59,600 nt of DNA from Thermoplasmata archaeon (GCA_020348445.1 CP070751.1:836438-896037); one strand, 5' to 3'; numbered from the stretch's first letter, positions 36,401-55,500 are shown. The notes: generated from the letters alone by a model not told the origin. A program made the numbers and translations.

Positions 36401-36631
36401 CTCCTTTGTGAATTCAGCCTGACATATTTCACATTCTGTGGATCCCTCATCAACAATTGTCCCGCACCTATGACATTCGAATTCCTCGATTACCTCCTCC
36501 TCTTGAAGGTCATCGATCGTTTCTATGGACTCCATAAATTCTACCTTACAATGAGGGCATCGGTTACTATCTTGACCAACTTTGGCCCCACAGATGGGAC
36601 ATTCGAACTCTATATATTCCTTTTCACTCAT
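33467..36631 (-). CDS. Membrane protein: 2 Zn ribbons, GLTN repeats, TM, conserved extracellular core, short cargo, IPEY (PEF-CTERM-like) tail
   Basis: 1054-aa ORF; paralog of 37205-43483 and 43543-56655; tail IPEYPQGLFPIITIIALFIISKRMERKK. Confidence 0.88.
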   Translation of the reverse strand: MSEKEYIEFECPICGAKVGQDSNRCPHCKVEFMESIETIDDLQEEEVIEEFECHRCGTIVDEGSTECEICQAEFTKEKEKPQSPPNVDEEIERIDTPAIKIFSEFIKEMQKSESILKPLQNVESPESLLSINQENVVIKPELARDITNSLISGPKIGSRGITNGLSSAVKRTDFGLTNGVTNGLKNKISSGSNDGLTNGLTNGLTNGLRDLKVGITNGITNGNGITNGLGKKSRISEPRRSIWRMMVVPLILFILMFAPYAFSNITNKPRGIEIDGGFGDWNKVSAISDPKEEMSFNSNVDIIDYRVDDRNMELSFYVRVDKNMLEGEPDVPNSEKHVDTIHIFIDSDQDPITGYFIEGIGADFMVRIYGWSGEVLSNYLYTYTETKQDWNLWRSSRTVSCAASGSELEVKIPFHILGLKNGIKVDVIFHTQSWDGFEDFSDYVVSNEKGILSVEQQGMVNDVVTGRGNILLRIKLKALGSAITLNALKVQRTGLGNDNDLANIRLEDENSNMVANGTLNQNEITFHPELILKDKEIVTINVVADVGSISAIENTVGFKIANNHDIDTSYGTISLTTLRPVFGLNDVGYILNVPDEVKIDGAFADWDEGGQRDDHIGDVGDKNLDIINYAVSGGTHVLSFYLKVDGEIVGGTRIPYLNDVVKQEKIETTGEYNDNQIPFTTKLPPKTGDDYVYIFIDTMSGSGYAIPQININADFMILITGKNNRIQLSSYFEWRGVSPYDWLWEEKESVSAKIDSMRLEIGVEYHKLGLSQGDCNFVSYIMVSNWENSTKDYTDILDGMNIGGARRSTRAPPGGGWPGTWTSLGADTNDAIEDNDDILEIFAYDNSDNLFMRIDIEVLTVEFKDAYDLYFNSTNNIWYRLRLYRNKAGPLEYWEIFLDYTTSTNPPDDTAIWTTEESYTDITIDSYDGTSFGFNFDDDNSEGINNAILFWVDKDSLGQGYDLLEEGNTTEMFADTHDNGNEQNKQVDRAPDDTGDPDPTYSYTSIPEYPQGLFPIITIIALFIISKRMERKKIGMGRGDSHHKIDENNFLMLK
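35945..36154 (-). repeat. (G-L/I/V-T-N)n tetrapeptide repeat block, paralog 1
   Basis: Nine xTNG units with varied synonymous codons. Confidence 0.85.
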
Positions 36632-36770: not shown

Positions 36771-37208
36771 TTAATTCAATGTCTTTTCGTACGCATATCC
36801 ATTGATTATTTCGTCTATCCTCCTGATAGAATTTTCTATGTCCAACATTGCTACACTGACATATCCTCGTTTTTGAAGCATGACTAAAAGAGTGAGCCGA
36901 TCTCCCAGTTTTTTGACAAGAACCTTGTAACCATTATAATCAAGAATACGATGGGCGAACATCACCTCATGCTGCCTGTTTATCGTATAACCATCTCCAT
37001 CCTCAAGCAATTTCAGTATTTCGGATATATCCTCTTTGTAATTCGTACTGGGGGGTAGATCACAGGCTATAATATCATTCATTCCTTCCACCAGGGCAGC
37101 CCCTTTTATATCGCTGATTTTATTTAAGTCCGAAATCACCTGCTTTAACCTTGAGATTGCCAGATTTTCTTGGAATTCCGATTGCCTCATATCCTTTGGG
37201 AACTTCAT
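36771..37208 (-). CDS. Roadblock/LC7-like protein
   Basis: 145 aa with helix-beta-beta-helix-beta-beta-beta-helix pattern (LNKISDIKGAALV...IIACDLP...LTLLVML). ATGA overlap with the upstream giant gene. Confidence 0.7.
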   Translation of the reverse strand: MKFPKDMRQSEFQENLAISRLKQVISDLNKISDIKGAALVEGMNDIIACDLPPSTNYKEDISEILKLLEDGDGYTINRQHEVMFAHRILDYNGYKVLVKKLGDRLTLLVMLQKRGYVSVAMLDIENSIRRIDEIINGYAYEKTLN

Positions 37209-40200
37209 ATTCTGTCCTCCTTTTTTTCGTTTTTTATATTTTTTCCCCCCAACCTAAGCCCATGTTTTTTCCGGGATTTTTTTCTTGATATTACAAACAG
37301 AGTTATTACTCCGATAATAGGCAAAAACATATCAGAAAATTCAGGAATGATGTATCTAGAATGACAGTATGCTTTTCCTGCATCTACAGACAAAGGAGGC
37401 GTATCATCAGCCTGGGTGTCATAATGGGGTGCACCGCATAAAGTCTCATTGATACCATCACCATTGATATCCCCTGCAAATGAAACTGACCACCCAAAAT
37501 GATCGTACGCGTACTCACCCTCATTCTTGTATTCTTCTGTTGTATCGATATCAGAGCCACCGCAGAAGACATAGAATGCACCACATTCTGTCTTAGAACC
37601 GTTTGTAAAATAGGGTGCGCCCACGATGACATCAGGATCTCCATCACCGTCGATATCACCTGCGTAATGCACAGAGTAGCCGAATTTATCGCCTGCAGTT
37701 TCTCCGTCAAATAACACATCAGGCACTATGTTCATTGGATTTCCACCGTAGTAAATCCAAGCATTACCGTTAGCAGTATCTGGCATACCCACGATTACGT
37801 CATCATAACTTCCGTCTGCATTTATATCGCTTGCATTACCAACACTAAAACCAAAACTCGTGCCTCCAATTCCGATAAGTATTGTATTTGCATTGGTAGC
37901 ACTAATATCATCATCCATTGCATTACTTCCGCAGAAGATATAGGCTCTATCGGTACCTGGTGCACCCACTATTACATCATCGTAACCGGTATTGTTCGTA
38001 TCCCCTGCATTAGAAACCGAGAAGCCAAACTCCTCATTGGAAATCACTCCAGTCAATCTCACATAGTCTAATCCCAGTGGTAAAGAAATAAGTCGTGCGA
38101 ACCTTGACAAACCTCCAGAGTTCATAAAATGATCAACAGTATCGCTTTGTGCACCGGACAAGGTTCGTTTGTCCATTTGAAACGGCATATGAATATCTGT
38201 TGAGTCCCTGTTCTCGATTAATGATTCCTGGCGAGTGGTACTGGAAGTTCGCAGCCTTATCCCATTAACTGCGGTAGCATCATTGGTGAACCATGCAGCA
38301 GTTCCCAGGATAACGAAATCGCCAGACTCCTCTGGAGTATAAGAGTTTGTGACGAGAGTCTCCCATCCACCTGGACCACTATTCCATCCGTCAGCCTCAT
38401 TATAGTGAAATTCAGAGAATGTATCAAGACGTATTGCTGCAATATGGGCATGGTCCATATAAGCACTTACTGTTGGAGTTTCGGAGTCCACAGTAAGTGA
38501 AATTGTATGCGCACTAGTGTCAAGGGTGATGTTCTTAATGACACCGAAATTGAATCTCTCATTAAAGTTATCGTCTGGTTCCATGAGAGTTTCGCCGTAT
38601 AATGTTCCATCGATATGCATTCTACCCCAGACACTATCGCTACTGCTTCCAGATCGCAGATTTGCACTGGCAACAATCAAATAATCTCCAGAAGATGCGG
38701 GTGTGAATGTTGTTTCGGTGACAGTAACTTCAGGACCCGTAGTTACTATTGCATCCTCGATCTCATCATATTGATCTGCAGGGATGCTCATCTCTATTGC
38801 TATAATTCTTGTATTACGAAATCGGCCATTATCTCCTTCAGTCTTGTACTCAAGTTCAATATCATGCGAACCGGCAGCTAGATAAATATATTTCACTGCA
38901 GAGAAATGATACCAATCGTTGATATCCTGGAATTCTCTGTTTGTTTCATGGTATACATTTGTATCATCAACTATCAGGCGCAGCCATGTATTGTCGCCCA
39001 CCTTGTCATCCGGAGCCACATCAGAAGTGGCTATAATCAGATATTTTGTGGCAACAGGAGGATTGACAGTTAAAGTAAGATAATCTATATAAGTAGCGGT
39101 ACTTGCCAGTTCCGATAATGATAGACTTTCTGCATATGAATAGGCATGACCATTCATGTTGAGCCTAGGACCATAGAGTATGTAAGCCCTTCCCTGATCG
39201 ACACCGAGGCTGTATGCACCAACGATAACATCATCATAATTATCACTATTCATATCTCCCGCACCTGAGACTGAACACCCGAACCTATCATAATTATGTT
39301 TTCCAGTTTGATTAATAGTCGAATCTGTATCTGGATCATCAATTGAACTCCAAGACGCCGTGGCCCTTCCGTAAAAAATGTATGCTCTTCCACGATCTGC
39401 ACTATAACCCGGCGCCCCGATAATTATGTCATCATAGGCATCATTGTTCACATTACCTGCATCGCTTACGCTCCACCCGAAAAGATCCCCTGTATTGGTA
39501 CCGTTTATCATGACATCGGCATTTGCGGCAATGATATCATCCAAACCTATACCTGAGTACCCAAAGAAAATATAGGCTGCACCACGCTCTTGGCCCCTTG
39601 TTTCCTTATTTCCATACGTTATGAACTCATCATTCATGGAAAGGTACTGTGCCTTGATCCAGTGCCTGCTTCGTACTACTCTTGAGATGCGGACCTCATC
39701 CAATTTGCCGTTAAAAAACTCACCTGGGGCAGGTCCCGGATCGTATTCCTGAGCCATACTTGCAAGGTCACTATCTACGAGGTTTGGGGTCTCAGGGATG
39801 TTATCCAAATCCAATTCCCCATCTACATATAGAATTGATTTGGAAGCGTCAGCCACTCCGACAATATAATGCCAATTACCGTCAGAGATGGTAACACTAC
39901 CCTGATTGTCCTCTATAGCAGCATGATTTGTTATCATCTCAATCCTCCATATATTACCACCCGCCGAGTTATGAAAACAAACCATTGCAGAATCAGCAGT
40001 ATTATCAGCCTTCATCCAAAAGGCCACTGTAAATATCGAATCGAGATCTGTTGTCACACTGTCCATAGTGATATAATCATTTGTCCCATCAAAATCATCT
40101 GCACCATCACATTTCCCAGTTGTTGCTTCATCACCATTATAATTCTGTGGAGATCCATCATTATTGTAAGATGTGGAATCATATCTTGTGCCTGTTCCTG

Positions 40201-43200
40201 TTTCATTTAAATGCCAAACACCAACGTAATTATCTTCCCACGTACTTGCCTCATCCTGGGCATCAGATGCACCTGAGTTGTTGTAGTACAACCAGATATA
40301 ATCTTCAGATGAGATACCATCGATTTGTGTAACATTAACCCAGATGTAGCTGTTTCCAGCTGTATTCCAATCCTCGAAATGATAATCCAATTCGTTGCTA
40401 CCATCAGCATCAATAAACCGCAGATCACTGCCATCGGACTTTGCATCCGAATAATCAAAATTCGATGAACTCAGGTTCACCATAACCGGGAAATCCAACA
40501 GATTTTCGGTTTGCCCGCTGTTATCAAATGTCAATCTCATACGATTTGACCAAGCATCATTCCACCAGTCTCCTCCTCCAGAGGATGTGTTGAAATAAGG
40601 AGCGCCTACTATGATATCATCATAACCATCATTGTTCACATCCCCAGCATAGGATACATTCCACCCAAACCTGTCTCCCGTATCTGCACTGTTGCCCGAA
40701 ACAAGCTCCACAAGACTCTCACTTCTTGTTCCCCGCATTCCAGTAATTGCTCCTTCCCCATTTGAATAATCAGCGCCCCCCTTCTCCCAGTCAGTTGCTA
40801 AGAAATACACCTTAAACGTATCATTTACCGAATTCACATCTATATCGTCCCAGGTTATACCTACTTCCATCCTCATCATGTCCAGTCCCACATCAACAAA
40901 TCCTGCTTCTGTCCACTCCCCAGGCGACATAATTGTCCCAGACCATTCATAGCATATGCTACTTATTATCCTGTTGTTCCTGCCTTTCACCTCTATCATG
41001 TAATTGGCAGAAATTGGAAGGCCAAGGCCGTAGCCCGAGCCAGATATTGTATCAATGAAGATATAGACCAAGTCCTCTCCAGTCTTAGGAGGAATCAAAG
41101 GTGCTGCTCCACCTACATCCCCAACTCCCCCAATTGAAGGTTCTGGTTTGACTCTATTATTCCAGTAAGGTACTTCCACGCCGCCTGCGATCTCACCATC
41201 CACTTTTAAAAAGAAAGCCGGTCCAGAATTGGTATTTGAAACCCCGTATTTTAAAATGTCTAGATTTGCACGATCTTCGTCACCTTCAGTGTCGTTGTGA
41301 ATGACCTTTTGATTCCAATCTGTAAAAGCACCATCGACTGTTATATTGTCAGGGATACCAAGGATGTAAGTGCACTCATACATCTTACTTTGCGGCTTTA
41401 CCCGTTCTAATGTCACTGTGCCTTTATCGATCAATACATCATGTTTTTTCAGGATTCTGAAGCCAATACTGTTTGCAACAACTGCATCATCACTGATATA
41501 AATAACTAGATATAGTGTTGAACTGTGTCCCTTGGATAATCCAAAATTAAGAAGAAAGCTGGCATTCCCCTCATTTAAGGTACCAAAAGCAATCAAATTA
41601 CCCTCCTCATCCTCGAGTTGTAATGCATCAATATCATAATCTGTTCCCTTCCCTATTCTTTTAATCTTCAGTTCATTTATAACGATATCTGCATTTTTTA
41701 CCTCCAAGTCCAGCCTAAGCAGTCTATTTGCTACATCAACTCTATCTATAACATCTTTTCCCACACCCTGCTGTGTAACAATTAAAACACCTTCTTCGTT
41801 GCAAATTATGGTATCAGAGAAATCGTCGAAATCGTTCCAGCTCTGCATATAGAATAGAACATCAACTTTATCGTATTCCTTCATGTTAAGGGTAGCAAAA
41901 GGAATCTGGGCCTCTAACTCTGAGCCACTTACTTCCACTGTAATGGTATCTACCAGCTCCCAGAGATTCCAATCCTGTTTTACTGCGTCATATCGATAAA
42001 GGGAACTGCCCAGAATCTCACCATTCCATCCATCAATCTCAGCCAAAACGTCCGCACCTATACCCTTGATGTAATACCCTGATTCAGAACTTTGATCAGT
42101 ATCAATGAATATATATGCCGTATCAACATGTTTTTCTCCGCCAGATTCACCTGCCAGCATATACTCTGCAACCTGTAGGTAAAACGACAATTCCATGAGT
42201 CTGGAATCCACACGGTAATCAATTATATCTACATTGGGATTGAATCCTGCTCCTTCGCCCTCATCAGACATAGTATTTACATTGCTCCAGTCCCCAAATT
42301 TACCGTCGATAACTATTCCCTCCTTTTGTTTTGCAATGTTGATGATCAAATAGGGTGATAACACCATCATTATCACAATTAAAGGAACCACTATCAATTT
42401 CCATTTTCCTTTTTTGCCTTCAATCACTCTGTGTCTTGTTCCAAGTCCATTGGTGATTCCATTGCCATTGGTCAGGCCATTTGTAATGCCAACTTTTAAC
42501 GCCTTAAGACCATTTGTAAGGCCGTTTGTCAAACCGCGCCCTTTTTCTCTAAGTCCATTTGTGAGGCCATTTGTTAAACCATTTGTTATGCCCACTGGGG
42601 TTTTAGCTTGTGTTTCATCTTCCTCGGTTTTAAGCGATAGAAGGTCCTCCATGGATTCCAAGGTTAGGTGTTCTTTTTCCATATCTTTTGGTTTTCTCTT
42701 AGGTTTAACGGATAATAATCCCTTCAATTCCTTTGTTGATTCCTCCTCAGATTCCTTCTCTAAAATATCCATCAATACCTTATCAAATTCATCTTCTGAT
42801 TCTTCCTCTATTATGAACTCTGTTCCACATCTTGGGCATTCTGTGGTGGATGATTCCACCTCTAAACCACAAGTCGGGCATTCCAAAAGGTCTTTTGACT
42901 CATCATCTGAGAAAATTGTACCACAATTCGGACACTCAGATGCCGTGCCTTCTACAATGAACTCACATTCAGAACATCTGAATTTTTCTATTTGATCCTC
43001 ACTCCGAAGAACCTCAGGTATCTCATCCAAATCGAAAAATTCCTCACCACAACCAGGACAGGAGGTGGCGTCAACATCAATTTCTATACCACATTCGGGA
43101 CATTTGTATACTTCCTGCTCATCCTTTTCAGCATCCTCCAAAATTCTATCTATTTCCCCGTATAATGATTCGATCTCATCGGCCAGAACCTCACGCTCTA

Positions 43201-43483
43201 TTTTTGGTGTTATATCAGAGAACTTTTGCAGGGTATCTTCCCAATCCACCATATCTTCAAAGGAAAATCCACATTCCCGGCATTTAAGTTCCTTTTGATA
43301 ATCCTTTTTCGAGACTGACAAAACCCGAAATGCACATTCAGGGCATCTTGCCTTGTCCTTGGCTTCTTTTATTACCTCTGATTCTTCTAGATATTTATCA
43401 CAATTTTTACACTTGAACGCAGGGACCTTCAATTTGGTACCGCACAAAGGACAACTTTTAATGGATTCCTTTTTTTTGGACAT
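37205..43483 (-). CDS. Giant membrane protein: 5 Zn ribbons, GLTN repeats, TM, conserved core, 7-bladed FG-GAP (integrin-alpha-like) propeller with DUF2341-LamG and other inserts, IPEF-CTERM
   Basis: 2092-aa ORF; seven FG(W/C/F/Y)xV...GD.N.DG.DD.IVGAP-type blades counted; tail IIPEFSDMFLPIIGVITLFVISRKKSRKK; AGGTG RBS. Confidence 0.9.
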   Translation of the reverse strand: MSKKKESIKSCPLCGTKLKVPAFKCKNCDKYLEESEVIKEAKDKARCPECAFRVLSVSKKDYQKELKCRECGFSFEDMVDWEDTLQKFSDITPKIEREVLADEIESLYGEIDRILEDAEKDEQEVYKCPECGIEIDVDATSCPGCGEEFFDLDEIPEVLRSEDQIEKFRCSECEFIVEGTASECPNCGTIFSDDESKDLLECPTCGLEVESSTTECPRCGTEFIIEEESEDEFDKVLMDILEKESEEESTKELKGLLSVKPKRKPKDMEKEHLTLESMEDLLSLKTEEDETQAKTPVGITNGLTNGLTNGLREKGRGLTNGLTNGLKALKVGITNGLTNGNGITNGLGTRHRVIEGKKGKWKLIVVPLIVIMMVLSPYLIINIAKQKEGIVIDGKFGDWSNVNTMSDEGEGAGFNPNVDIIDYRVDSRLMELSFYLQVAEYMLAGESGGEKHVDTAYIFIDTDQSSESGYYIKGIGADVLAEIDGWNGEILGSSLYRYDAVKQDWNLWELVDTITVEVSGSELEAQIPFATLNMKEYDKVDVLFYMQSWNDFDDFSDTIICNEEGVLIVTQQGVGKDVIDRVDVANRLLRLDLEVKNADIVINELKIKRIGKGTDYDIDALQLEDEEGNLIAFGTLNEGNASFLLNFGLSKGHSSTLYLVIYISDDAVVANSIGFRILKKHDVLIDKGTVTLERVKPQSKMYECTYILGIPDNITVDGAFTDWNQKVIHNDTEGDEDRANLDILKYGVSNTNSGPAFFLKVDGEIAGGVEVPYWNNRVKPEPSIGGVGDVGGAAPLIPPKTGEDLVYIFIDTISGSGYGLGLPISANYMIEVKGRNNRIISSICYEWSGTIMSPGEWTEAGFVDVGLDMMRMEVGITWDDIDVNSVNDTFKVYFLATDWEKGGADYSNGEGAITGMRGTRSESLVELVSGNSADTGDRFGWNVSYAGDVNNDGYDDIIVGAPYFNTSSGGGDWWNDAWSNRMRLTFDNSGQTENLLDFPVMVNLSSSNFDYSDAKSDGSDLRFIDADGSNELDYHFEDWNTAGNSYIWVNVTQIDGISSEDYIWLYYNNSGASDAQDEASTWEDNYVGVWHLNETGTGTRYDSTSYNNDGSPQNYNGDEATTGKCDGADDFDGTNDYITMDSVTTDLDSIFTVAFWMKADNTADSAMVCFHNSAGGNIWRIEMITNHAAIEDNQGSVTISDGNWHYIVGVADASKSILYVDGELDLDNIPETPNLVDSDLASMAQEYDPGPAPGEFFNGKLDEVRISRVVRSRHWIKAQYLSMNDEFITYGNKETRGQERGAAYIFFGYSGIGLDDIIAANADVMINGTNTGDLFGWSVSDAGNVNNDAYDDIIIGAPGYSADRGRAYIFYGRATASWSSIDDPDTDSTINQTGKHNYDRFGCSVSGAGDMNSDNYDDVIVGAYSLGVDQGRAYILYGPRLNMNGHAYSYAESLSLSELASTATYIDYLTLTVNPPVATKYLIIATSDVAPDDKVGDNTWLRLIVDDTNVYHETNREFQDINDWYHFSAVKYIYLAAGSHDIELEYKTEGDNGRFRNTRIIAIEMSIPADQYDEIEDAIVTTGPEVTVTETTFTPASSGDYLIVASANLRSGSSSDSVWGRMHIDGTLYGETLMEPDDNFNERFNFGVIKNITLDTSAHTISLTVDSETPTVSAYMDHAHIAAIRLDTFSEFHYNEADGWNSGPGGWETLVTNSYTPEESGDFVILGTAAWFTNDATAVNGIRLRTSSTTRQESLIENRDSTDIHMPFQMDKRTLSGAQSDTVDHFMNSGGLSRFARLISLPLGLDYVRLTGVISNEEFGFSVSNAGDTNNTGYDDVIVGAPGTDRAYIFCGSNAMDDDISATNANTILIGIGGTSFGFSVGNASDINADGSYDDVIVGMPDTANGNAWIYYGGNPMNIVPDVLFDGETAGDKFGYSVHYAGDIDGDGDPDVIVGAPYFTNGSKTECGAFYVFCGGSDIDTTEEYKNEGEYAYDHFGWSVSFAGDINGDGINETLCGAPHYDTQADDTPPLSVDAGKAYCHSRYIIPEFSDMFLPIIGVITLFVISRKKSRKKHGLRLGGKNIKNEKKEDRI
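42443..42592 (-). repeat. (G-L/I-T-N)n tetrapeptide repeat block, paralog 2
   Basis: Eight xTNG units. Confidence 0.85.
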
Positions 43484-43542
43484 ATCTGCACCTTATATAG
43501 TGTTCTCTCTCACTCTCTCTTGAAATTTTATGGGTATTTTTT

Positions 43543-46500
43543 CTATTTTAACCTATTTTTATAAATCTGAAATATGAGAATAATGCGTCTTCTGACACAA
43601 TGGGCCCTTATTTTGCTGGAATTCCGGGCTGAAATGAACTTTTTCCATCGATTTCTTTTAAATATAGTGAAAAGAACTGGCACCATTACAATTGGAATTA
43701 AGACAAAATCGTATTCTGGGATTATGAAATCCACATTCTGTGCATTGGGAGTTGAGCCGTTTTCAGTGCTTCTGTCTATGCCAAAGGGATCGGCCTTTCC
43801 TGCACCATCCTCCCAGTTCACAGGAAGATTCGTGTCATTGGAATCTTTATCTCGGCCTATTGTTTGGTTCTCTAATAGGTCCGAGGTATCCACATAATCC
43901 CCGTCTGTCCATTGACTCCATGATGCTGCATCATCATCGTCGGAACCTGAGGTTTCGCCCCATGCAACATAATCAATTATAATTGAATTACTATCCATCA
44001 AAGCCAAATCATCAGAATTTTCAAGCATTGGAGCCGTTGTGCTCATATTGACGATCAATTTTGGATGTTTGCTTGAATCGGAATTGTCGCTTGAGACAAA
44101 GATTTGATTTTCAGAACCATCGTCAGCCTCAAAGATCATGCCATAATTACTGTATGTCCCGCTCTCCCAATCTCTAATCAAATCAGTAACATTCCAGTAG
44201 TACCAAGCATCTGTTCCAGCAGCAATTGTTTTCGTGTCCTCGGATGATGAATCATAATCACCCCCAGATGCGGCCCATGAATTTGTGCCATCGTAAGTTC
44301 CCCAGTTTGCTCCGCTGTTAACCTGTCCAGTACCCTCGATCCATGATTGGGTTACTCTATGAAGATTCACTGTTGCACCGGTAGTTGCATGACCATCATA
44401 GCGATATAACCAAACCTTTGCATCTTTTACAATACCTGGTGGAAGGCTTGATAGGTCAAATTGAACCAATGGTCTTACATATAAAGAAGAGGCATTGGTA
44501 ACTGTCATTTGCACCCATGTTCCAGTATTAGCTATTCCCAGAGAACTATCTAAATAAACATCCTTTCCTGCTGTAGCATCCGGTTGTACCACAAATTCAG
44601 ATTCATAGTCAATATATCCATAGACGTCTGTTGAACTGTTGATCCCACCCTGTCCTAGATGACAGACCAGGTACCCGCCAGGGGGTATGCTTCCTGCACC
44701 GCTTATATCAAATTTATATCCATCATTGTCCGTAAGATACCAGCCAGTAAGATCAACTGGGGTATTTCCAGAATTGTACAATTCAACCCATTCATTATAT
44801 GAAGAGCTGTCTGTAGTGGAGGATGAGGGGGGAGTTTCTTCTGATCCTGTATATATGAAAGAAGCTGTGTCATTTTGGTTGTTATACTCAGTTACTATCC
44901 AGTCCGCAGAGCGTGTATAATTTGATACTCGAACCTCATCGATAGAGCCATTCCATGGATAGCTCCAAGCCACACCTACATCATTATCCCCATGACCGAT
45001 CCAGAACTCATCTGCGCATGTTTCGATATTATCTGTTTTATCGACTTCATTCGAACTTTTAATCCCATTTACATATACAAACATTTTCGAACCGTTATAT
45101 ACTGCAACAACATGTACCCAGGAATCGGTTGGGAGATCATTATCCGAGGCAACCGAATATGAGTCCTCTGGAAGATGGAAATACAACGGATTGCCTGTAT
45201 CTTTAATTACCATGCGATAACCTTCAGCCCACCCACTATGACTCATTATTCCGGTATAATGATCAGAATCATATCCTTCAAAATTAATCCAAGCTTCCAA
45301 TGTTATTTGCTTACCACCAATGTCCAAACTCGCGTCGTAACCACAATCTATATAGTCATTCTCTCCATCAAAGTCCTGGCCGTATCCGATTTTGCCTTCG
45401 ATTCTCGTGGGAACATAACTTGAGGTACCGGAACCCCCCTGACCGTGATTGTCGAACTGTGAACTGTCCTCAAATTCATCTGCTGTACCATCTCCACTTT
45501 GGTTCAGATGCCAAACTCCCACATAATTTGGATACCAAACTCCATCTGGATTTTCTGTGGGAGAACTTTGACTGGTGTTTCCGTAATACATATATATCAT
45601 GGTATCTGAGGAAGAAAATAAGCGTGGTACCTTTACCCAGGCAACCAGTTCCCCAGAGCTGCTATTAAAGAGCTCAATCTCATGGCACAGCTTGGACTCT
45701 CCCTCTGAATCTGTAAAGATTATATCATACCCATCAGCACGTGCATCATTTGCCAGGTCGGAATCCGTGATATCAACAAGTACGGGGAAAGCAAATAGGT
45801 CTCCAGTTACTTTACTTGAGTTGATGGTAATAGGTTTGCGATAATCCCAATCTGAAGGTGTGATGTCCTCATCATTGAATGTGTAGAACGAACCCGGGTA
45901 ATACTGGTTGTTAAACTCGGTTAAAATCCAATCTGCAGAATGGGTCACTTTGGAAATTCTCACTTCGTCTAAGATACCAGCATAGTGTTGTCCTCCAGCA
46001 ATTCTTCCACCTATGGTTACAGCGGCAGAAGAGATCGTGGTGGAAATGGGGCCACCACCTCCGGTATCATCCCTCACCTGGGAACCATTTTGATAATGTC
46101 TTTTAATTGTACCATCATATGTATAACTAACGTAAACCCATATACTTTTGCCTATTTCATAAGCTCCCCCATCCTCCCCTGCATTGAAAAACAGGTCCTT
46201 ATCTGTGACATCATCATCAAAATAAGCCCCCCATAAAGTGTTGGAGTCTGATTCATCTCTTTTGAGTATGACCCTTCCCCAAGTATCAAGTAAAGGATCA
46301 TTGATATTTAACCAAAAAGAGAGTGTGAGATTTTCCAGCACTCCAAGTGTAAGACCCATATCCCCCAGATTGAACCGATCATCACCTGCACTACCTGAGA
46401 AATCCTGACCGTAACCGATCCAACCCGTTGTTCTTGTTGGTGAATCCTGTCTGGTTCCATCATTTGTGGATGAAGCAGAATTGGAAATACTACCTGATTC

Positions 46501-49500
46501 CTCGTCCATGTGGTAGACACCTACATATCCATTGCTGAAAACGGCTTCGTCATCCTCGGAATTTGTGACATCTGAATTATTATAATACATGTAAATGGTT
46601 GTATCAGTGGAAGATGAGAGGGAAGCCATTTTGACCCAAGCGATCAACTCTCCAGTTGCACTTGTATAACGCTCGATCTCATGGTTGAGTTGGGATTTTC
46701 CGTCCCAATCTGTAAATACGATATCATCCCCATCTGATTGTGCATATGTGACTAGATCAGAATCTGTGGTCTGAATCATCATTGGAAATCCATCGATATC
46801 GCCTGATACCTGTTCATAGTTGATGGTGATCTCTTTTCGATATGTCCAGGCCGAGGTGTTTATATCTTCTCCATTAATCGTGTAAAATGTATCGGGATAA
46901 TACTGGTTGTTGAATTCCGTTTCGATCCATTGTTGCGAACGAGGAACATTGGAGAAGCGAAGTTCATCTAAAAGGCCACCGTAATTCATAGATGGAACAC
47001 CTGATGCTCCAACAAATACATCTGCAGATGAACTCCAGATAGGTCCACTCATGCCCGTATCTTCCAGTATTAAAGACTCATTTATATACAGCAATTGACT
47101 GGAACCATCGTATGTAAAGGAGACATAGGTCCAGTTACTTTTTATTACAGGCTGGGCAGTACTTCCATCGTCATTCACATATATATAAATCCCTTTATTG
47201 GCATCATCGTTAAATGAGAGCTGATATGAATATGTTGTATCTGATTCATTTCTTTTGGACACAATCTTCCCCCAATTTTCTATTGCGGAGTTATCGATAT
47301 ATGCCCAAGTAGAGATGGTAAAATTCTCATTGGTTCCATCAGTAAGACCCAGATCCCCCAAATTGAAATAATCATCGGTTCCACTCCCTGTAAAGTTCTG
47401 GGCGAATCCGATCTTTCCTGTATCCCTTGTGGGTGTGTTTTCCCTTATCCCATCATTTGTATCGGATGCCGAGTTCCCTATGGTTCCCGTATCTTCTACC
47501 AGGTGATATACACCCACATAGCCATTGCTCCATACTCCTTCCTCGTTCTCTTGATTTGTAGCTTCCGAGTTGTTGTAGTACATGTAAAATACAGTATCAA
47601 TTGTTGATGAAATGGAGGGTAATTTCACCCATGCTATCAACTCACCTGTTTCACTGTTATAATACTCTATTTCATGATCAAGTTTAGTTTCATTGTCTGC
47701 AGCCACGAATACAATGTCATCTCCATCCGATTGGGCTTTGTCCATTAAATCCGAATCAGTTGTACTAATTAAAACAGGAAAATCTGTTAAATCGGCTGCG
47801 ACCTTCGATGAATGAATCGTGATCTTCTTGCGACAGTTCCAATCCCCATCCCAAGGTCCTCCTGTAGGATTGAACATTATTTCATTAATAACGATCTGAG
47901 GAATCCTGATATACAGTATGTATGCTTTTCCTGAATCGGTATTTGATCCATCGTCCTTATGGGGAGCCCCTACTAAAACTGCATTGTCACCTGAGTCGTT
48001 AATATCAAGGGCAAAGGAAACAGACCAGCCCATGTGCTCATTGGCTTGGGATCCTTTGAACTCATAGCAGGCCAAAGAGTTCATAGATGAACCGCCCTTA
48101 AACACATAGACGTTTCCTGAATTTGTATATGAACCGTTATCGTAATAGGGTGCTCCCACTATAGCATCGATCTTACCATCACTATCCACATCTCCTGCAA
48201 AATCCACTGAGTAACCGAACCTGTCTCCATTGGATTCGCCTGTGAGATTGACATCTGAGGTGCTGTCCATTGAAGAACCACCGTGGAATATGTATACCTT
48301 TCCAGGAGAATCCTGCTGTTCGTTTCCAAAGGAAATGAAATTATTGGTCATGGATTTGTATTGCGCCGCGATCCAGTCCGCACTTCTTATTTTATTCGAA
48401 GCTGTAACCCCATCTATCACACCATCGAAAGCCTCAGTGTCCCATCCATAACCTATATCAAAGGGAGTTGAAGTATCAGAAAGAAATGCTGCGCTTCCGG
48501 AGGTTGTCTCCCTATTGCCATTTAAATAAATCTCGGGTACGGTTGGATTGCTGGAATTAAAAACAACAGCAACATGATACCAAGTGTTTAAACTGAGTAT
48601 AGTGCTTCCGGTTACAAAACTATTCGTATGATTACCCACATCGATTACAGCTCCACCTTCTGGCCTTATTATTATTCTAAATCCGTAATTTGACCAACTA
48701 AATTTGCTCAAAATTTCATCCCAATCCGCATTTGCATGTCTATAGAACCATGCAGAATATGTATAACTTTTACTTACATCAAAGTATAAACTCGCATCAT
48801 TTCCGCAATCTATATAATCGTCTTGACCATCAGCAGTTCCTGCGAAATCATAGGCACCGTCAACCTGTCCTGTGACATTTTGTATCACATCGCCGTAAAT
48901 TGTACCATCATTATCATACGAAGTCGCATCATAGGGAGTTCCCGATGACTCATTCAAATGCCAAACCCCTGTGTAGTTGATATCATAGGTTCCTGTAATG
49001 TCCTGAGCACTAACGGCATTGGAATTTCCGTAGTACATCCACATGTAATCGGTTGTTGAGCCCCAATCAATTTGGGTAACGTTCACCCACACATAGCTGT
49101 ACGCAGAGGAATTCCATTTTTCTATGTGGTAATTATACTCTGTTGAGCTATCGGGGTCAATGAACCTAAGATCGGTTCCATCAGGCTTTGCTTTTGAATA
49201 ATCAAAATTTGATGCACTTAAATTAACAAGAACCGGGAAATTTAACAAGTCTTCGCTCTGCGCACCATTGTTAAATGTCAACTTTTTCCGGTATTGCCAG
49301 TTGCTGTTCCACCATAGATTATCACCAAATGGAGCTCCCACAATTACATCATCGTATGATCCATCCTGATTAATATCGCTTACATTGGATACGGACCAGC
49401 CAAATGTATCTCCAGTACTTTCACCTGTTAAGGCAATATATGAACCAGAACTCTTTATCCTGTGATATTCGATATTCAAGGTGGAATTTACGGTATCTGA

Positions 49501-52500
49501 GGTTTCGTTCCTACCTATAAATCTAATGCGAACGAACCCATCACTAAGCCTATGATCGCTGTCTAGCGTGTACTCTTTCGTGGTGAACGTAGTGGAGGTT
49601 AGGTCACCCTGAGAACCTAGATCATCCCATGAGGAACCATCGTATACCTGAACACCAAAATCGGTTTCGCTTCCATCCACAGAGTAATTGAGCTGTAATT
49701 TTAAATTTTCTGCAGCGAGAACACTTGATGTGTTGAATTCGATATCAAGCACATATTTTATCTCTACTTCAATCTCACATTCAATACCAGCCGGAGCACC
49801 AGGAGTCCAGCTAAAGCTATCCACATTATTCCCATTTGAAGGATCTACTTTATAAATTGTATCTGCCCCATCGTCGGTTATCCAGAAATACTCTCCGTCC
49901 CAGCCCAGTCCACCTGGGTCCAAGGACTGCGTGTTCACTTCTGTTACGTCCCCGTTTGGTATGGTATTGCCTGAGAGATTTCCGATATCAATAGTATAAA
50001 TCTTATCCTCTGTTGGATCCGTCATTATTAGCCGGCCCGAACCGATATCGTCACGCCAGGTGAGCCCCTCGAGGTATGTTGGTAAATCCGTAGCAAAGTA
50101 TCCTTCATCGCAGTCGATATAATCAACCATGCTAAAATCGCTTGGATCCACTTTGTATATATTATCATCACCAGCATCACCGATCCAGAAATAACCGCCG
50201 CCATATGTGAATCCTCGAGCATCCCCAGAGAAGCTGGATATATCATGGGTGGCTACAAGGGTTCCATTATTTGGGTAATATTGCTCGATATTGTCTGTAC
50301 CATAATCAACACACCAGACATAATCATTGTAAAGAGCCATACCATTTGGATAGGTGGTTCCCGTATTCTCCCAGCTGATATCTACATTTCCACTTTCACT
50401 TCCAGATGCCAAGGAATCTTCTGCATTAACCCTATATATATAGTCCGAGGTTGAATCACAAATCCATAGCCACAAGGTTGTGGCACCCAAATCGTGTTCT
50501 TTCAATATAGCATATGAACCACTGTCTATGGCACTTTTTGCATTGTCAAAATTGGTGATGACACCATAGGTTGTAACATTTGAGGTTACATATGCATAAC
50601 TATCACCATAAAAGTAAATATACACCTTTCCCGCATCAGTTGCCACATCATCATTGAAAGGAGCACCAATTATCACATCATCATAACCGTCATTGTCAAT
50701 ATCACCTGCATCTGAAACAGAAAAGCCGAACTGATCACCGTAATTCTCACCAGTGTAATTCTTGTCAGCATTTGATGCTGAAATGGGTATTGAGCCATCC
50801 CCGTAGAAGATATAGGATTTTCCATATCCTACCTTATCACTGAAACTTTGTTCATTGCTAAATGAAATGAAATCAAAGGTCATGGAAAGATACTGGGCGG
50901 CAATCCAATCAGCACTTCTACCTATGTTTGATATTCTTACCTCGTCGATCCATCCATCCATATCTTCGTAAACTGTACATTCCCCAATCCATAGATTCCC
51001 ACGCGATTGATAGATTGGCCCGGAAAATGATATAGAGGTGCCTAATTCCGCACCGTTTTTGTACAATCTCATATCTGTGCCATCCCATGTCCCTACCATG
51101 TACTGCCATTCATTACTTGTCACGGCATCACTGACATGAAGTTGACCTCCATCTGTGGTTCCATCAGAGCTTAACCACCAGTCCCAGTCATCGGCATCTC
51201 CAGGATCGTCATTGAAGGCAAGGCAGTAGGCTCTATCAGTTTGATATTTCGATACTATGGCACAATCCGATTTCTCATGGTCAACATCGTCGGGTTTGAC
51301 CCAAGCCTCGACGGTTATCTGGGCTGTTATGTTCAAACTGCTGCTTGAAGGGATGTCAACATGATCTGCATTGCCATCGCAATCAACTGCATCATCGATT
51401 ATCCCGGTTTGCCCCTGGGTCAAACCACCTGAACCAGTCCCGTCATTATCATTGGATGTGGAATCAAAAAGCGTCCCCGAGCTCTCGTACAGATGCCACA
51501 CTCCCATGAAGTTCGCATCATAGGTAGCCGCTGCATCTTGAACATCAGAGGCCGCAGTATTGTTGTAATACATCCAGATATAATCTGCTGACGAACTTCC
51601 ATCAACCTGGGGTACCTCCACCCAAACATAGCTGTAACCTGAAGAATCCCAGTCCTCAATATGATAATCCAGTTCTGTGGTTTCATCAGTATCAATAAAC
51701 CGCAGATCAGTTCCATCCGATTTTGCTTTTGAGTAGACAAAGTTGGATGCACTCAGGTTAACAAGGACTGGAAAATTTATAAGGTCCTCTGATTGTCCGG
51801 TGTTATCGAATGTTATTTTTTTGCAGTAATTCCAGTTTGAGTTCCACCATCCATGGGCATTTGGTGCTCCTACTATAATATCATCATAGCTTGAGTTATC
51901 GAAATTTCCAGCACCTGACACCGAACTTCCGAACTTATCATAATCGCTTTCTCCAGTTATCTTTTCATCGGAATCGGTATCGGCGTCATAAACATCACTC
52001 CATAGTCCCGTTGCTTTGCCATAAAATATGTATGCTCTCCCTTTGTAGTTGTCATAACCAGGTGCGCCGATAATGACATCATCATAAATGCCGTTCACAT
52101 CCCCTGCGTCACTTACTGACCACCCAAAAAGATCACCAGCAAAGGAACCGTATATTGTGACATTGGCATTTGAGGCATTGATATCGCCTGAGCTTATACC
52201 TGGATAACCAAAGAATATGTACGCTGCCCCCCCATCTTGACCAACCCCAAGTTTCTGCGCATAGATGTCATCGTCATTAGCACCGTTTCGCTCATCCTCC
52301 CAAACAACAACAGCATAATCATTTGAATCTACAGCCACATCCGGGTATCGTTGGTGAGCACTATCCGAGTTACTGTTAATCTTTTTATCTGAATCACCCC
52401 AGTGATAATCTCCATTTGAATCGAGTTTTTGGGCATAAATGTCGTAGTTGCTCTCACTACGATAATCACGCCATGCTACAATTGCGTACCCACTTAAGTT

Positions 52501-55500
52501 CACAGCTACAGTGGGATAGTCCTGAATAGGAGCTACTCCTCCGTTTCCTGCTTGGTTCACGAGTTTGTCTGAAGAGCCCCACTGGGTATCACCTGTTGTA
52601 TTGAGCTTTTGTGCGTAAATATCATAACTACGGGTCTGATCATACCAGACGATGATGGCATTATCATTTATATCCACGGCTACATCAGTTTCGCTTCCTG
52701 AGCTAGATGAATATTGATTTACTTTCTTATCGGAAGCACCCCATTGAGCAGCTCCAGTAGAGTCAAGTTTTTGTGCGTAGGTAACATATTTCGAACCGGA
52801 GCGATAATCAGACCAAGAAACGATCGCATCTCCATCGGAATCCAAATCTATCGCAGGGTCGATTTGAACCTGTGTTGTATACTGGTTTACTAATTTGTCC
52901 GAACCACCCCATTCTGCGGCCCCAGTAGGATCGAGCTTTTGGGCGTACACATTCCAGCCGCTGCGAGCATCCTTCCAGACGACAGTGACATTCCCTGAGG
53001 AATTCACTGCCACATCAGGTAGATCTTGGGAACTTGATGTATATTGGTTGACCTGCTTATCTGAGGATCCCCACTGCGGGTTACCATCTGAATCGAGCTT
53101 CTGCGCGTAGATATTCCAATTGCTATCGCGATAATCAGCCCAGACTACGATTGCATTGCCTGAAAAGTCCACATCCACTGCAGGATATTTTTGATCCTCA
53201 CTATCTGAATTTTGGTTGACCTTCACATCTGTAGAATTCCATAATGGATCCCCGTCAGAATTAAATTTCTGTGCATATATATTCCAGTCTGTATCACGGT
53301 CATCAGCCCAGACGACAATTGTATTTCCTGATGAATCTGCAGTTACTGCAGGAAATTGTTGGAGATCAGAATCTGAATTCTGGTTGACTTTCTTGTCGCC
53401 AGTTCCCCAAAGACACGCTGAATCAGGATCGTGGTAAGGAGCACCTACGATTATATCAGGATAACCATCATCGTTTACATCACCAGCATAAGACACATTC
53501 CATCCAAATCTATCACTTATTATGTTACCAAATCCACTAACAATTTCTTCAAGACTTTCGGCTCTTGTTCCTGTGGGTTCCATTATCACTCCTTCGCCAT
53601 CCGAATAATCTGAAGCCCTCCTCTCCCAGTCTGTGGCTAAAAAGTACACTTTGAATCCTTCATTTAGTGGGTCGATTTTTACATCATCCCAGTGTATACT
53701 CACCTCCATCTGCATTATGTCCAATCCCACCTCAACCTGATGGCTTACAGTCCATTCCCATTCCCATGACGCAGATCCAGACCATCTATAGAAGGTGCTG
53801 CTCAATATTTTATTATGCCTACCTTTCACCTCTATCATATAATCAGCATCAATTGGAAGGCCCACGCCATATCCTTGTCCAGAGTTCGTATCAATAAAGA
53901 TGTAAACCACGTCTTCTCCTGTCTTGGGTAGGACCTCTGGGATGATACCCTCTCCGCCTGGTTCTCCCCCGATTATTGGCTCAGATTTTGCCTTGTTGTT
54001 CCAGAAAGGCACTTTAATTCCACCACACATCTCACCGTCAACATTCAGATAAAACGCAGGTCCATATTCTGTATTGGATACTCCATATTTTATAATGTCC
54101 AAGTTTACACGATTCACATCTTTTGCTGGATCCTCGTTCAATAATTCATCTTCCCAATCAGAAAATGCTCCGTCGATACTCACATTTTCCGGTACATTTA
54201 GCAAATAACTGTTTTCATAGAAGTTCTCTTCTGGTTTTATACGAGAAATCGATACTGTCCCTTTATCAGTTATCACATCATGATTGTTCTCAATTCTCAA
54301 ACCTATGGTATTTTCTGAATGTGCATCCCCATTGACTGCGATCACAAGATACATAGTGCGAGTTTCATCTTTAGATATTAGTATATCTGGTCTAAAAGTT
54401 ACTCGATCCTCAAAAAAAGAGCCGAACACTAACCTCTCGCCATTTTCGTTTTCAAGCCATACTCCCGAAACATCAAGTTCGGTTCCCACACCTGTTCTCG
54501 TTGCTATAATTTCGTTGATTGTAATATCAGCGTTTTGTGCCCTAACCTCCATTTTAAGCAATCTGTGACTGTTTCCACTTATCTGAGCCTCCCCTGTGCC
54601 CTGTTGTGTTATGGACAGAATGCCATTCTCGTTGCTTATTATTGTATCAGAGAAATCGTCAAATCCGTCCCAGCTCTGCATGTAAAACAGCACATCCACC
54701 TTATCATGTTCATCTATATCCACTGCACTCATTGGTAACTGGGCTTCCAACTCAGACTCGTATACAGCAACAGTAATACTGCCTTTTAATTCCCACAGAT
54801 TCCAATCCTGTTCCAGAGCCGAATAACCATAGAAATTATAGCCTAAAAGCTCTTGGTTCCATCCATATATTTCTGCTAAATAATCTGCGCCAATACCTTG
54901 AATATAATACCCTGTTTCTGGGCTTTGATCTGAATCAATGAAAATATAAGCAGTGTCCACATGTTTTCCATTAAAAGGTTCACCTGCAAGCATCTCTCCT
55001 TCAACTTTTAGGTAGAACGAGAGTTCCATCAACCTCGCATCCACGCGATAATCGACTATATCCACATTGGGATTGAATGGTGCTACTTCTTGGGTGTCTG
55101 TGGATATAACTACTCCCCTCCAATCTTCAAATCTACCGTCGATTGTTATTCCTTTTGGTGGTTTAGCTAGATTCGCGATCAAATAAGGAGACATAACCAA
55201 TATCACAACTATTATTGGAACAACCACAAGTTTCCATCTACCTTTCTTACCCTCAAAAGCACCATGTTTTGCACTTAATCCATTGGTAATACCGTTTCCA
55301 TTGGTTATACCATTGGTGATTCCAGTCCTCAGGGCCCGAAGACCGTTTGTGAGTCCATTGGTAAGACCATTGGTAAGACCGTTGGAAATACCCCTCCTGG
55401 CCCTCTTCAGCCCGTTTGTAAGGCCGTTGGTCAATCCATTTGTCAATCCATTTGTAAGACCGTTTGTCATTCCAAACTTGCGTTTTTTATGTACCTTTAC

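What the first reader, a model, noticed from the sequence alone, without database searches (positions are those of the whole stretch)
37380..53520. Two complete 7-bladed integrin-alpha-like propellers carrying different cargo at equivalent loops (Russian-doll architecture)
Seen: exactly seven FG-GAP blades in each of the 2092- and 4370-aa proteins, interrupted by large inserts. Right after GAPY of blade 1, the 2092-aa protein has a DUF2341-LamG module. At the same site the 4370-aa protein has seven ~55-aa WGxSDKxVNQ...IYAQKL repeats (about 52240-53430), probably a second whole propeller. Both resume at G(G/R)AAYIFFG. The 4370-aa protein has further inserts inside blades 3 and 5 (DUF2341-LamG) and after blade 4 (about 49440-50600). 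The 2092-aa protein has an unrelated ~370-aa insert after blade 3 (about 38070-39160). Inference: the propeller acts as a hub displaying swappable ligand-binding modules.
Basis: partly seen in the sequence, partly recalled or inferred. Interest (0 to 1): 0.75.

Follow-up and report, generated by a model that had tools for sequence, protein, structure and literature searches.

The report
Archaeal integrin-like propellers with nested cargo
Two neighbouring giant surface-protein genes of a sediment archaeon each encode one integrin-like seven-bladed propeller whose loops are interrupted by whole folded domains, in one case a second seven-bladed propeller, and relatives carry different domains at the same loop sites, so the propeller seems to serve as a scaffold for exchangeable binding modules.

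Summary
Each ORF (2092 aa, 37205-43483; 4370 aa, 43543-56655; minus strand) has exactly seven FG-GAP motifs.

A model of the 2092-aa protein's propeller region, inserts included, superposes on whole integrin alpha propellers (Z 39, 362 residues, model 4-1116). The residual blades therefore close into one ring. The seven WG...YAQKL repeats model confidently (pLDDT above 90) as a separate seven-bladed propeller. Its nearest solved relative is the CylK propeller (Z 43.6).

One correction: all inserts lie inside blades. DUF2341-LamG and WG propellers sit in beta2-beta3 loops. The 370- and 390-aa inserts sit in beta3-beta4 loops of blades 3 and 4.

In 16 homologs with seven blades, cargo varies (none, 1-3 DUF2341-LamG modules, a WG propeller) but the sites are fixed. 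Blades 6-7 are never interrupted. A module tree shows closely related cassettes in different blades.

The function, a multivalent adhesin or receptor, is inferred and not tested.

All relatives are annotated hypothetical, and I found no paper on a propeller nested in a propeller. The scan has noted nested FG-GAP designs on other DNA (e1-5331248, e1-5628587, e1-1915600) and a paralog in this genome (e1-5722319). I class this as a new variant of a known kind.

The parts
37205..43483 (-). Gene for P0001 (2092 aa). Order: cytoplasmic Zn ribbons, (TNGL)n repeat, TM helix, about 545-aa ecto domain, interrupted FG-GAP propeller, PEF-CTERM.
40589..40696 (-). P0001 residues 930-965: strand ELVSG (beta4 of blade 7, ring closure), then blade 1 beta1-beta2 (FGWNVS...DIIVGAP).
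   Evidence: model pLDDT about 90
39608..40576 (-). Cargo in the blade 1 beta2-beta3 loop of P0001: DUF2341 + LamG_3 module (residues 970-1292).
   Evidence: Pfam PF10102 3e-13, PF13385 3.7e-17
39164..39589 (-). P0001 residues 1299-1440: blade 1 beta3-beta4 (GAAYIFFG...), blade 2, and blade 3 beta1-beta3.
38069..39163 (-). X370 (residues 1441-1805): cargo in the blade 3 beta3-beta4 loop of P0001. It is three tandem all-beta repeats of about 120 aa.
   Evidence: 9 invariant columns; strands only
37349..38068 (-). P0001 residues 1806-2045: blade 3 beta4 (YVRLTG), then uninterrupted blades 4-7.
37208..37348 (-). P0001 C-terminal PEF-CTERM sorting signal: IIPEF, TM helix, basic tail.
   Evidence: TIGR03024 23.7 bits against cut-off 23
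43543..56655 (-). Gene for P0002 (4370 aa), a paralog with the same frame plus more cargo.
53428..53538 (-). P0002 residues 1040-1076: strand EIVSG, then blade 1 beta1-beta2.
52240..53427 (-). Cargo in the blade 1 beta2-beta3 loop of P0002: seven WG...YAQKL repeats forming a nested CylK-like seven-bladed propeller (residues 1077-1472).
51859..52239 (-). P0002 residues 1473-1599: blade 1 beta3-beta4, blade 2, and blade 3 beta1-beta2.
50854..51858 (-). Cargo in the blade 3 beta2-beta3 loop of P0002: DUF2341 + LamG_3 (residues 1600-1934).
50599..50853 (-). P0002 residues 1935-2019: blade 3 beta3-beta4 and blade 4 beta1-beta3.
49441..50598 (-). X390 (residues 2020-2405): cargo in the blade 4 beta3-beta4 loop of P0002. 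It has five repeats of about 48 aa of the type FWIxDxGxDxIYxVD, then a beta domain of about 110 aa. Probably a small propeller; not folded.
   Evidence: (DUF6923 and Phytase-like hits, both below cut-off)
49324..49440 (-). P0002 residues 2406-2444: blade 4 beta4 (YIALTG) and blade 5 beta1-beta2.
48322..49323 (-). Cargo in the blade 5 beta2-beta3 loop of P0002: DUF2341 + LamG_3 (residues 2445-2778).
   Evidence: one clade with the blade-5 modules of four homologs
47896..48321 (-). P0002 residues 2779-2920: blade 5 beta3-beta4 and uninterrupted blades 6 and 7.
43666..47865 (-). After the propeller in P0002: three tandem DUF2341-LamG modules (residues 2931-3935), then lamin-tail and DNRLRE domains (3936-4330).

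Best explanation
The two genes are adjacent paralogs. They encode giant membrane-anchored surface proteins of a Thermoplasmata-class sediment archaeon.

Each protein has these parts, in order:
- a cytoplasmic zinc-ribbon head;
- one TM helix;
- an ecto domain of about 545 aa;
- one integrin-alpha-type seven-bladed FG-GAP propeller with Ca-loop motifs;
- a C-terminal anchor (PEF-CTERM in the shorter protein).

The propeller chain leaves the ring at fixed loops, builds a complete autonomous domain, and returns. DUF2341-LamG jelly rolls and a CylK-like seven-bladed WG propeller sit in beta2-beta3 loops. By analogy with integrins (recalled, not measured on the model), that is the top, ligand-binding face. 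A triple beta-sandwich (X370) and a probable small propeller (X390) sit in beta3-beta4 loops.

The propeller therefore works as a rigid platform. It holds several lectin-type modules at set positions. The most likely use is multivalent binding of glycans, particles or other cells, possibly reported inward through the zinc-ribbon tail.

The family diversifies by gain, loss, duplication and relocation of cassettes at these permissive loops.

Shown here: blade count, insertion sites, ring closure in a model, the nested propeller fold, and site conservation with cargo variation. Inferred: face assignment, binding function, signalling.
For: - Seven motifs in each protein, with blade-wise paralogy.
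- Pfam domains above cut-off.
- The model of P0001 930-2050 aligns to full integrin propellers across both inserts: Z 39.0, rmsd 2.7, 362 residues, model 4-1116 against chain 13-432.
- The WG unit has pLDDT above 90. It matches CylK 249-654 at Z 43.6, rmsd 2.1, 349 residues, 20% identity. The next unrelated propellers score about Z 31.
- WG repeat runs in 148 other proteins peak at 7, 14 and 21.
- Sites are fixed and cargo is variable in 16 seven-blade homologs and about 55 junctions.
- The D-module tree places blade-1 and blade-3 modules of different proteins in the same well-supported clades.
- Full-length orthologs exist in two closed MAG chromosomes, at 84% and 71% identity.
- PEF-CTERM hit and an exosortase-family gene in the genome.
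- DUF2341 proteins are predicted adhesins in archaea (PMC4858521).
Against: - No experiment exists on any member.
- Both models are predictions from shallow alignments (15 and 23 rows). Mean pLDDT is 68 for the large model. The third X370 repeat and part of the LamG domain are poorly modelled.
- The FG-GAP flanks in the P0002 model have low confidence, so the geometry between host and guest propeller is unknown.
- P0002's own ring was not folded.
- No ligand is known for any cargo. LamG_3 belongs to a superfamily that also holds glucanases, and CylK is an enzyme.
- Two related closed genomes lack a P0002-type protein with a WG propeller in blade 1.
Confidence: 0.7

Rival explanations
1. The proteins are surface-tethered enzymes rather than adhesins. 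The CylK-like propeller, the ConA-like (glucanase superfamily) modules and the DNRLRE domain would act on polymers. The FG-GAP propeller would be part of a catalytic or substrate-feeding assembly, as in FG-GAP-type polysaccharide lyases.
For: The closest solved relative of the WG unit is an enzyme (CylK). PF13385 is described as a lectin/glucanase superfamily. DNRLRE and Disaggregatase-repeat domains occur in this gene and the next one.
Against: CylK catalysis needs its N-terminal Ca-binding domain; the active site lies between the two domains and Arg105 is in the N-terminal one (PMC8916777). That domain is absent here. No catalytic family scored above cut-off. Cargo copy number varies freely, which suits avidity better than catalysis.
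Confidence: 0.13
2. They are structural envelope proteins, S-layer-like or matrix-building. Anchored at both ends, they would have bulky inserts that only add mass and spacing and have no specific ligands.
For: The protein is anchored at both ends (N-terminal TM and PEF-CTERM). The genome holds many paralogs. The sequence is acidic and rich in N-x-S/T.
Against: Rapid cargo turnover at fixed sites is more typical of recognition proteins than of lattice formers. So is the use of lectin-type folds.
Confidence: 0.1
3. The seven FG-GAP pieces do not form one ring in the real protein. The closure would be a bias of the structure predictor towards the known integrin fold, and the pieces would be separate small sheets or linkers between independent domains.
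For: Only predictions are available. Overall pTM is 0.48 and the alignment is shallow.
Against: - The blade segments have pLDDT 80-92.
- The count is exactly seven in both paralogs and in 16 homologs.
- A ring-closing beta4 strand precedes blade 1.
- Relatives have the same flanks contiguous, without the insert.
- Uninterrupted seven-blade FG-GAP proteins exist in the same genome.
Confidence: 0.05

Closest known systems
Integrin alpha-subunit beta-propeller with the inserted alpha-I (vWA) domain (e.g. alphaM, alphaX, alphaL; PDB 5es4, 9t3y)
   Same: Seven FG-GAP blades with DxDxDG-type Ca loops. The ring is closed by an N-terminal strand. A whole ligand-binding domain is spliced into a loop of the propeller. 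The modelled fold matches at Z 36-39.
   Different: - Integrins carry one insert, a vWA domain, between blades 2 and 3 (PMC3192720). These proteins carry 2-4 inserts inside blades (beta2-beta3 or beta3-beta4 loops).
- The cargo folds differ: LamG, a propeller, beta-sandwiches.
- No beta-subunit partner, thigh or calf legs were seen.
- Ca-loop motifs occur in essentially all blades.
- The organism is archaeal, with an N-terminal anchor and cytoplasmic zinc ribbons.
Bacterial integrin-type seven-repeat FG-GAP propellers (Chouhan et al. 2011, PMC3192720)
   Same: Prokaryotic, seven consecutive FG-GAP/Cage motifs, with a Ca-binding motif in every repeat.
   Different: Those were selected as uninterrupted, compact repeats. 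Here the repeats are separated by 320-430-aa cargo.
CylK / BrtB C-terminal seven-bladed propeller (PDB 7fh6, 7ron)
   Same: The WG x7 unit superposes at Z 43.6, rmsd 2.1, 349 residues and 20% identity, well above other propellers. Its blades of about 55 aa are long, which fits CylK's long internal loops.
   Different: There is no N-terminal Ca beta-roll domain, so the CylK active site cannot be formed as described. Sequence search did not connect them. Here the propeller is a guest inside another propeller's blade.
DUF2341-containing predicted adhesins of archaeal type IV pilus loci / PilY1-associated domain (Makarova et al. 2016, PMC4858521)
   Same: DUF2341 modules on large archaeal surface proteins that are read as adhesins.
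   Different: No pilus genes or class III signal peptide were seen here. The modules are spliced into propeller loops rather than strung in tandem only.
Nested domain insertions: integrin beta headpiece (beta-I in hybrid in PSI) and sialidases with a lectin domain inserted in the catalytic propeller (own knowledge, not checked here)
   Same: A host domain tolerates a complete guest domain in a loop; in sialidases a lectin-type guest sits in a propeller.
   Different: Those have one guest per host and a fixed identity. Here there are up to four guests per ring, their identity varies between paralogs, and a propeller can be the guest.

Membership tests
Integrin-alpha-type FG-GAP beta-propeller (Pfam PF01839) | FG-GAP repeats above the Pfam cut-off, seven in number | tested here: met
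   103.7 and 94.2 bits against cut-off 22.1; exactly 7 motifs in each protein
Integrin-alpha-type FG-GAP beta-propeller (Pfam PF01839) | Closed seven-bladed fold | tested here: met
   Prediction only. Z 39.0, rmsd 2.7, 362 residues aligned to integrin alpha4 13-432 across both inserts. P0002's ring was not folded.
Integrin-alpha-type FG-GAP beta-propeller (Pfam PF01839) | Dx[DN]xDG-type Ca-binding loop between beta1 and beta2 | tested here: met
   The motif is present in 7 of 7 blades of P0001 and in most blades of P0002 at sequence level. Metal binding was not tested.
Integrin (functional heterodimer) | Beta-subunit partner, thigh/calf legs, C-terminal TM with GFFKR-type tail | tested here: not met
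   No such domains in Pfam or NCBIfam scans of either protein or its neighbours. The anchor is an N-terminal TM plus PEF-CTERM.
DUF2341 + LamG_3 module | PF10102 and PF13385 above cut-off, adjacent | tested here: met
   P0001: 50.5 and 63.3 bits. P0002: 176.9 and 271.9 bits with 5 stretches each.
CylK/BrtB alkylating enzymes | Seven-bladed propeller of the CylK type | tested here: met
   Z 43.6, 20% identity, 349 residues; fold level only
CylK/BrtB alkylating enzymes | N-terminal Ca-binding beta-roll domain packed on the propeller, with catalytic Arg105, Tyr473 and Asp440 | tested here: not met
   The unit is flanked directly by FG-GAP strands and has no beta-roll domain. The residues named in PMC8916777 were not mapped.
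PEF-CTERM / archaeosortase substrates | TIGR03024 signal at the C-terminus; archaeosortase in the genome | tested here: met
   P0001: 23.7 bits against cut-off 23. P0002's PEY tail gave no hit. PF09721 gene at G000:2831818-2832426, 30.4 bits against 25.7.
BC2L-C N-terminal / TNF-like trimeric lectin (for X370) | PF21592 or a TNF-like jelly-roll fold | tested here: inconclusive
   Atlas feature score 0.90 with low recognition. No Pfam hit at E up to 5. No PDB hit with a repeat profile. The three-fold tandem repeat is real.

The most novel reading that the evidence does not exclude
A lineage of archaeal surface receptors uses an integrin-type propeller as a general insertion scaffold. Permissive beta2-beta3 loops accept whole cassettes, up to complete seven-bladed propellers. 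WG-type guests occur here. FG-GAP-type guests occur in a paralog at G000:1074677-1087393 and in P0006 and P0022. The cassettes are moved between blades and paralogs to generate a combinatorial repertoire of binding surfaces. A propeller nested within a propeller blade would be a chain topology with no solved precedent that I know of.
Probability: 0.4. Interest if true: 0.7.

Novelty: new variant of a known kind. Interest (0 to 1): 0.55.

Why it matters
- It gives a natural, many-membered example of a beta-propeller that tolerates several large guest domains at defined loops. That is useful for understanding how the integrin alpha-I insertion could arise, and as a template for engineering multi-domain display scaffolds.
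- It points to a very large repeat family with no Pfam match here: the WG...YAQKL blades, with 33,864 representative proteins at E up to 0.001. Its only solved relative appears to be CylK.
- It marks a set of giant, fast-evolving surface proteins as the likely contact organs of uncultured sediment Thermoplasmata.

Tried and rejected
- Sequence searches of the three unnamed inserts against PDB chains found nothing. A profile of the X370 repeats also found nothing, and a profile including the WG unit hit only integrins through its FG-GAP flanks.
- X370 and X390 are unrelated by BLASTP.
- Pfam at E up to 5 gave only sub-threshold hits for X390 (DUF6923, Phytase-like). It gave none of use for X370, the WG unit or the ecto domain.
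- PHROGs gave nothing for the X370 repeats.
- Atlas leads: X390 scored below 0.8. X370 scored 0.90-0.92 to unnamed phage proteins and Bc2l-C_N, but with low recognition. I kept this as a lead only.
- Third nesting level: I tested whether LamG sits inside DUF2341, because the Pfam match always stops at position 65 of 84. The tail after LamG gave no DUF2341 hit, so I dropped the idea.
- A P0002-type protein with a WG propeller in blade 1 was not found in the two related closed genomes.
- Full-text phrases for a propeller nested in a propeller returned no relevant paper. This is no proof of absence.
I used the fold with inserts, plus natural insert-less homologs, instead.
Face assignment and the distance between the ends of each insert could therefore not be measured.
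Full report
GENES. The region holds two adjacent minus-strand ORFs: P0001 (37205-43483, 2092 aa) and P0002 (43543-56655, 4370 aa). Both proteins share one plan. It starts with a cysteine-rich zinc-ribbon N-terminus (Pfam DZR/Zn_ribbon) and (TNGL)n repeats. One hydrophobic helix follows (about residue 361-384 in P0001 and 483-505 in P0002). Next comes a shared ecto domain of about 545 aa with no Pfam match. Then comes the FG-GAP region and a C-terminal PE(F/Y)-hydrophobic-basic tail. The P0001 tail passes the PEF-CTERM model TIGR03024 (23.7 bits against cut-off 23). The genome has an exosortase/archaeosortase-family gene.

ORGANISM. The genome is a 5.16-Mb single contig. Full-length orthologs of the P0001 propeller region lie in closed MAG chromosomes. 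They are labelled Methanomassiliicoccales archaeon (CP070739.1, 84% identity) and Thermoplasmata archaeon (CP070629.1, 71%). The genes are therefore real and conserved in that class.

OBSERVATION. A regex and a local HMM find exactly seven FG..V...DxNxDG..D..VGAP motifs in each protein. Pfam FG-GAP is far above its cut-off. Each motif is followed by a G.AYIF.G strand and an x-L-x-G strand. A matching strand (ESLVELVSG / ESLEEIVSG) precedes blade 1, as the ring-closing strand does in integrins. Blade i of P0001 resembles blade i of P0002. The residual blades, 418 and 430 aa, are 57% identical.
- P0001 blade 1: DUF2341-LamG (970-1292).
- P0001 blade 3: X370 (1441-1805).
- P0002 blade 1: seven WG...YAQKL repeats (1083-1472).
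- P0002 blades 3 and 5: DUF2341-LamG (1600-1934 and 2445-2778).
- P0002 blade 4: X390 (2020-2405).

One correction is needed. X370 and X390 lie between strand beta3 and strand beta4 of blades 3 and 4. They are inside a blade, not after it.

DO THE RESIDUAL BLADES MAKE ONE PROPELLER? Spliced sequences cannot be submitted to the fold tool. I therefore folded P0001 930-2050 with both inserts, using a 15-row alignment. Mean pLDDT is 68. Blade segments score 80-92. The third X370 repeat and parts of LamG score low. VIA-align superposes the model on complete integrin alpha propellers. The best match is Z 39.0, rmsd 2.7 A and 362 residues, with model range 4-1116 against alpha4 residues 13-432. Fifty entries score Z 36-39. 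So the pieces on both sides of both inserts are modelled as one closed seven-bladed ring. Natural controls agree:
- P0010 lacks the blade-1 insert. It aligns at 82% identity before it and 55-68% after it.
- P0015 and P0016 lack the blade-1 and blade-5 inserts.
- In a related genome the two flanks of the P0002 blade-1 insert match a contiguous stretch with a 12-nt gap.
- Uninterrupted seven-blade FG-GAP proteins exist in the same genome.

THE WG REPEATS. P0002 1040-1600, folded with 23 rows, gives pLDDT above 90 over most of the seven repeats (pTM 0.74). Foldseek finds seven-bladed propellers: CylK, and the CV39L and PLL lectins. VIA-align gives Z 43.6, rmsd 2.1, 349 residues and 20% identity to the C-terminal propeller of CylK (249-654). 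The next, unrelated propellers score about Z 31. The flanking FG-GAP strands are modelled as a long two-stranded ribbon with low confidence. The geometry between host and guest therefore remains open.

This repeat has no Pfam match here. It is nevertheless very common: 33,864 representative proteins at E up to 0.001. In the 148 best hits the run lengths peak at 7 (67 runs), 14 (16 runs) and 21 (3 runs). That fits seven-blade units. CylK needs its N-terminal Ca domain for catalysis (PMC8916777). That domain is absent here, so I do not file the unit as a CylK enzyme.

THE OTHER CARGO. X370 is three tandem repeats of about 120 aa. Shuffle z-scores are 11.5 and 7.6. Nine columns are invariant over the window and two orthologs. 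All three repeats are beta in the model. A language-model look-up points weakly to BC2L-C-N/TNF-like lectins and phage proteins. Neither Pfam nor PDB profiles support this. A single-chain pseudo-trimer is an attractive idea but untested. X390 has five repeats of about 48 aa of the type FWIxDxGxDxIYxVD, plus a beta domain. It gives sub-threshold DUF6923 and Phytase-like hits.

ARE INSERTION POINTS RANDOM? No. Sixteen distinct proteins have exactly seven FG-GAP motifs plus cargo. In these, every DUF2341-LamG module (1-3 in tandem) and every WG propeller lies in a beta2-beta3 loop, of blades 1, 2, 3 or 5. Other inserts of 180-575 aa lie in beta3-beta4 loops of blades 2-5. Blades 6 and 7 are never interrupted. 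Across about 35 proteins and about 55 junctions, cargo starts 4-17 residues after GAP and ends 5-15 residues before G.AYIF.G. The cassette edges are stereotyped: WW(N/D)xxW...FITFGxEE for D modules, and WGxSDxxVNQ...IYAQK(L/I) for WG propellers. WG propellers occur in the loop of blade 1, 2, 3, 4 or 5, depending on the protein. One paralog in this genome (G000:1487108-1494568) has three of them. Another (G000:1074677-1087393) holds a D module, seven FG-GAP blades of a different subtype, and two more D modules in the blade-1 loop. The blade-1-type strand GAAYIFFGYSGI resumes only after that. P0006 and P0022 hold fourteen inner blades.

A quick maximum-likelihood tree of 66 D modules shows that blade-5 modules of five proteins form one clade, which points to vertical descent. 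The P0001 blade-1 module groups at 100% SH-aLRT with the blade-3 modules of P0015/16 and the blade-1 module of P0009. The P0002 blade-3 module groups with blade-1 modules of other proteins. Cassettes have therefore moved between blades. The careful tree search did not finish, so only the quick tree was used.

MECHANISM. Shown: one ring, fixed permissive loops, and autonomous guests. Inferred from the known integrin structure (my own recollection of alphaVbeta3, not measured on the model): beta2-beta3 loops lie on the top face, where integrins bind ligand and carry the alpha-I domain, and beta3-beta4 loops lie at the bottom rim. Inferred from family annotations (LamG/ConA-like, DUF2341 in predicted adhesins, PMC4858521; lectin-like propeller matches): the guests bind glycans or surfaces. 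The protein would then be a multivalent adhesin or receptor, held at both ends in the membrane, with a zinc-ribbon tail inside the cell.

COMPARISON AND NOVELTY. Insertion of a ligand-binding domain into an integrin-type propeller is known: the alpha-I domain lies between blades 2 and 3 (PMC3192720). Seven-repeat FG-GAP propellers in bacteria are also known (same paper). What differs here:
- the site, inside blades;
- the number of guests, up to four per ring;
- the exchangeability of the guests;
- the use of a complete propeller as guest.

All relatives looked up are annotated hypothetical or generically. Phrase searches found no paper on a propeller nested in a propeller. The scan has noted nested FG-GAP designs on other DNA and the paralog 181 kb away. 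I rate this a new variant of a known kind, of moderate interest.

Noticed in passing
window 43666-47895: Right after blade 7, P0002 reads IVINEIMFNP, which looks like the start of a lamin-tail domain. The Pfam LTD match begins only at residue 3949, from model position 16, after three DUF2341-LamG modules. A DNRLRE domain follows at 4032-4203.
   Followed up: partly
window 36771-37208 (-): A 145-aa ORF overlaps the stop of P0001. Another reader called it Roadblock/LC7. Pfam gives no family at E up to 0.01.
   Followed up: partly
window 56763-59600 (-): The C-terminal part of a further giant gene runs off the window. It has LamG_3 x2, DUF2341, LTD and a Disaggregatase repeat, the same tail design as P0002.
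   Followed up: no
window 52240-53427 and databases: The WG...YAQKL blade of about 55 aa matches no Pfam model here. Yet it hits 33,864 cluster representatives, often in tandem 7-, 14- or 21-repeat units within proteins of 1000-7000 aa. The family looks unmodelled, and its only solved relative seems to be CylK.
   Followed up: partly
G000:C1:1487108-1494568 (L002, L005, L018): A paralog has three WG seven-bladed propellers, nested in blades 1, 2 and 5 of one FG-GAP ring.
   Followed up: partly
G000:C1:1074677-1087393; also P0006, P0022: The blade-1 loop holds a D module, then 7 (or 14) very regular FG-GAP blades of another subtype (SGxAVSSGDINNDGYDDVIIGA...AGETYVIYGG), then D modules. Only then does blade 1 resume. 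This is FG-GAP propeller(s) nested in an FG-GAP propeller.
   Followed up: partly
window 33467-36631 (-): A third paralog of 1054 aa has a zinc-ribbon head but no FG-GAP, LamG or DUF2341 hit. Its ectodomain was not examined.
   Followed up: no
P0123 (KPJ70916.1): A close homolog with WG propellers in blades 1 and 2 is labelled 'candidate division TA06 bacterium DG_78' and sits on a 5.5-kb contig. All other named relatives are Thermoplasmata, so the bin assignment may be wrong.
   Followed up: no
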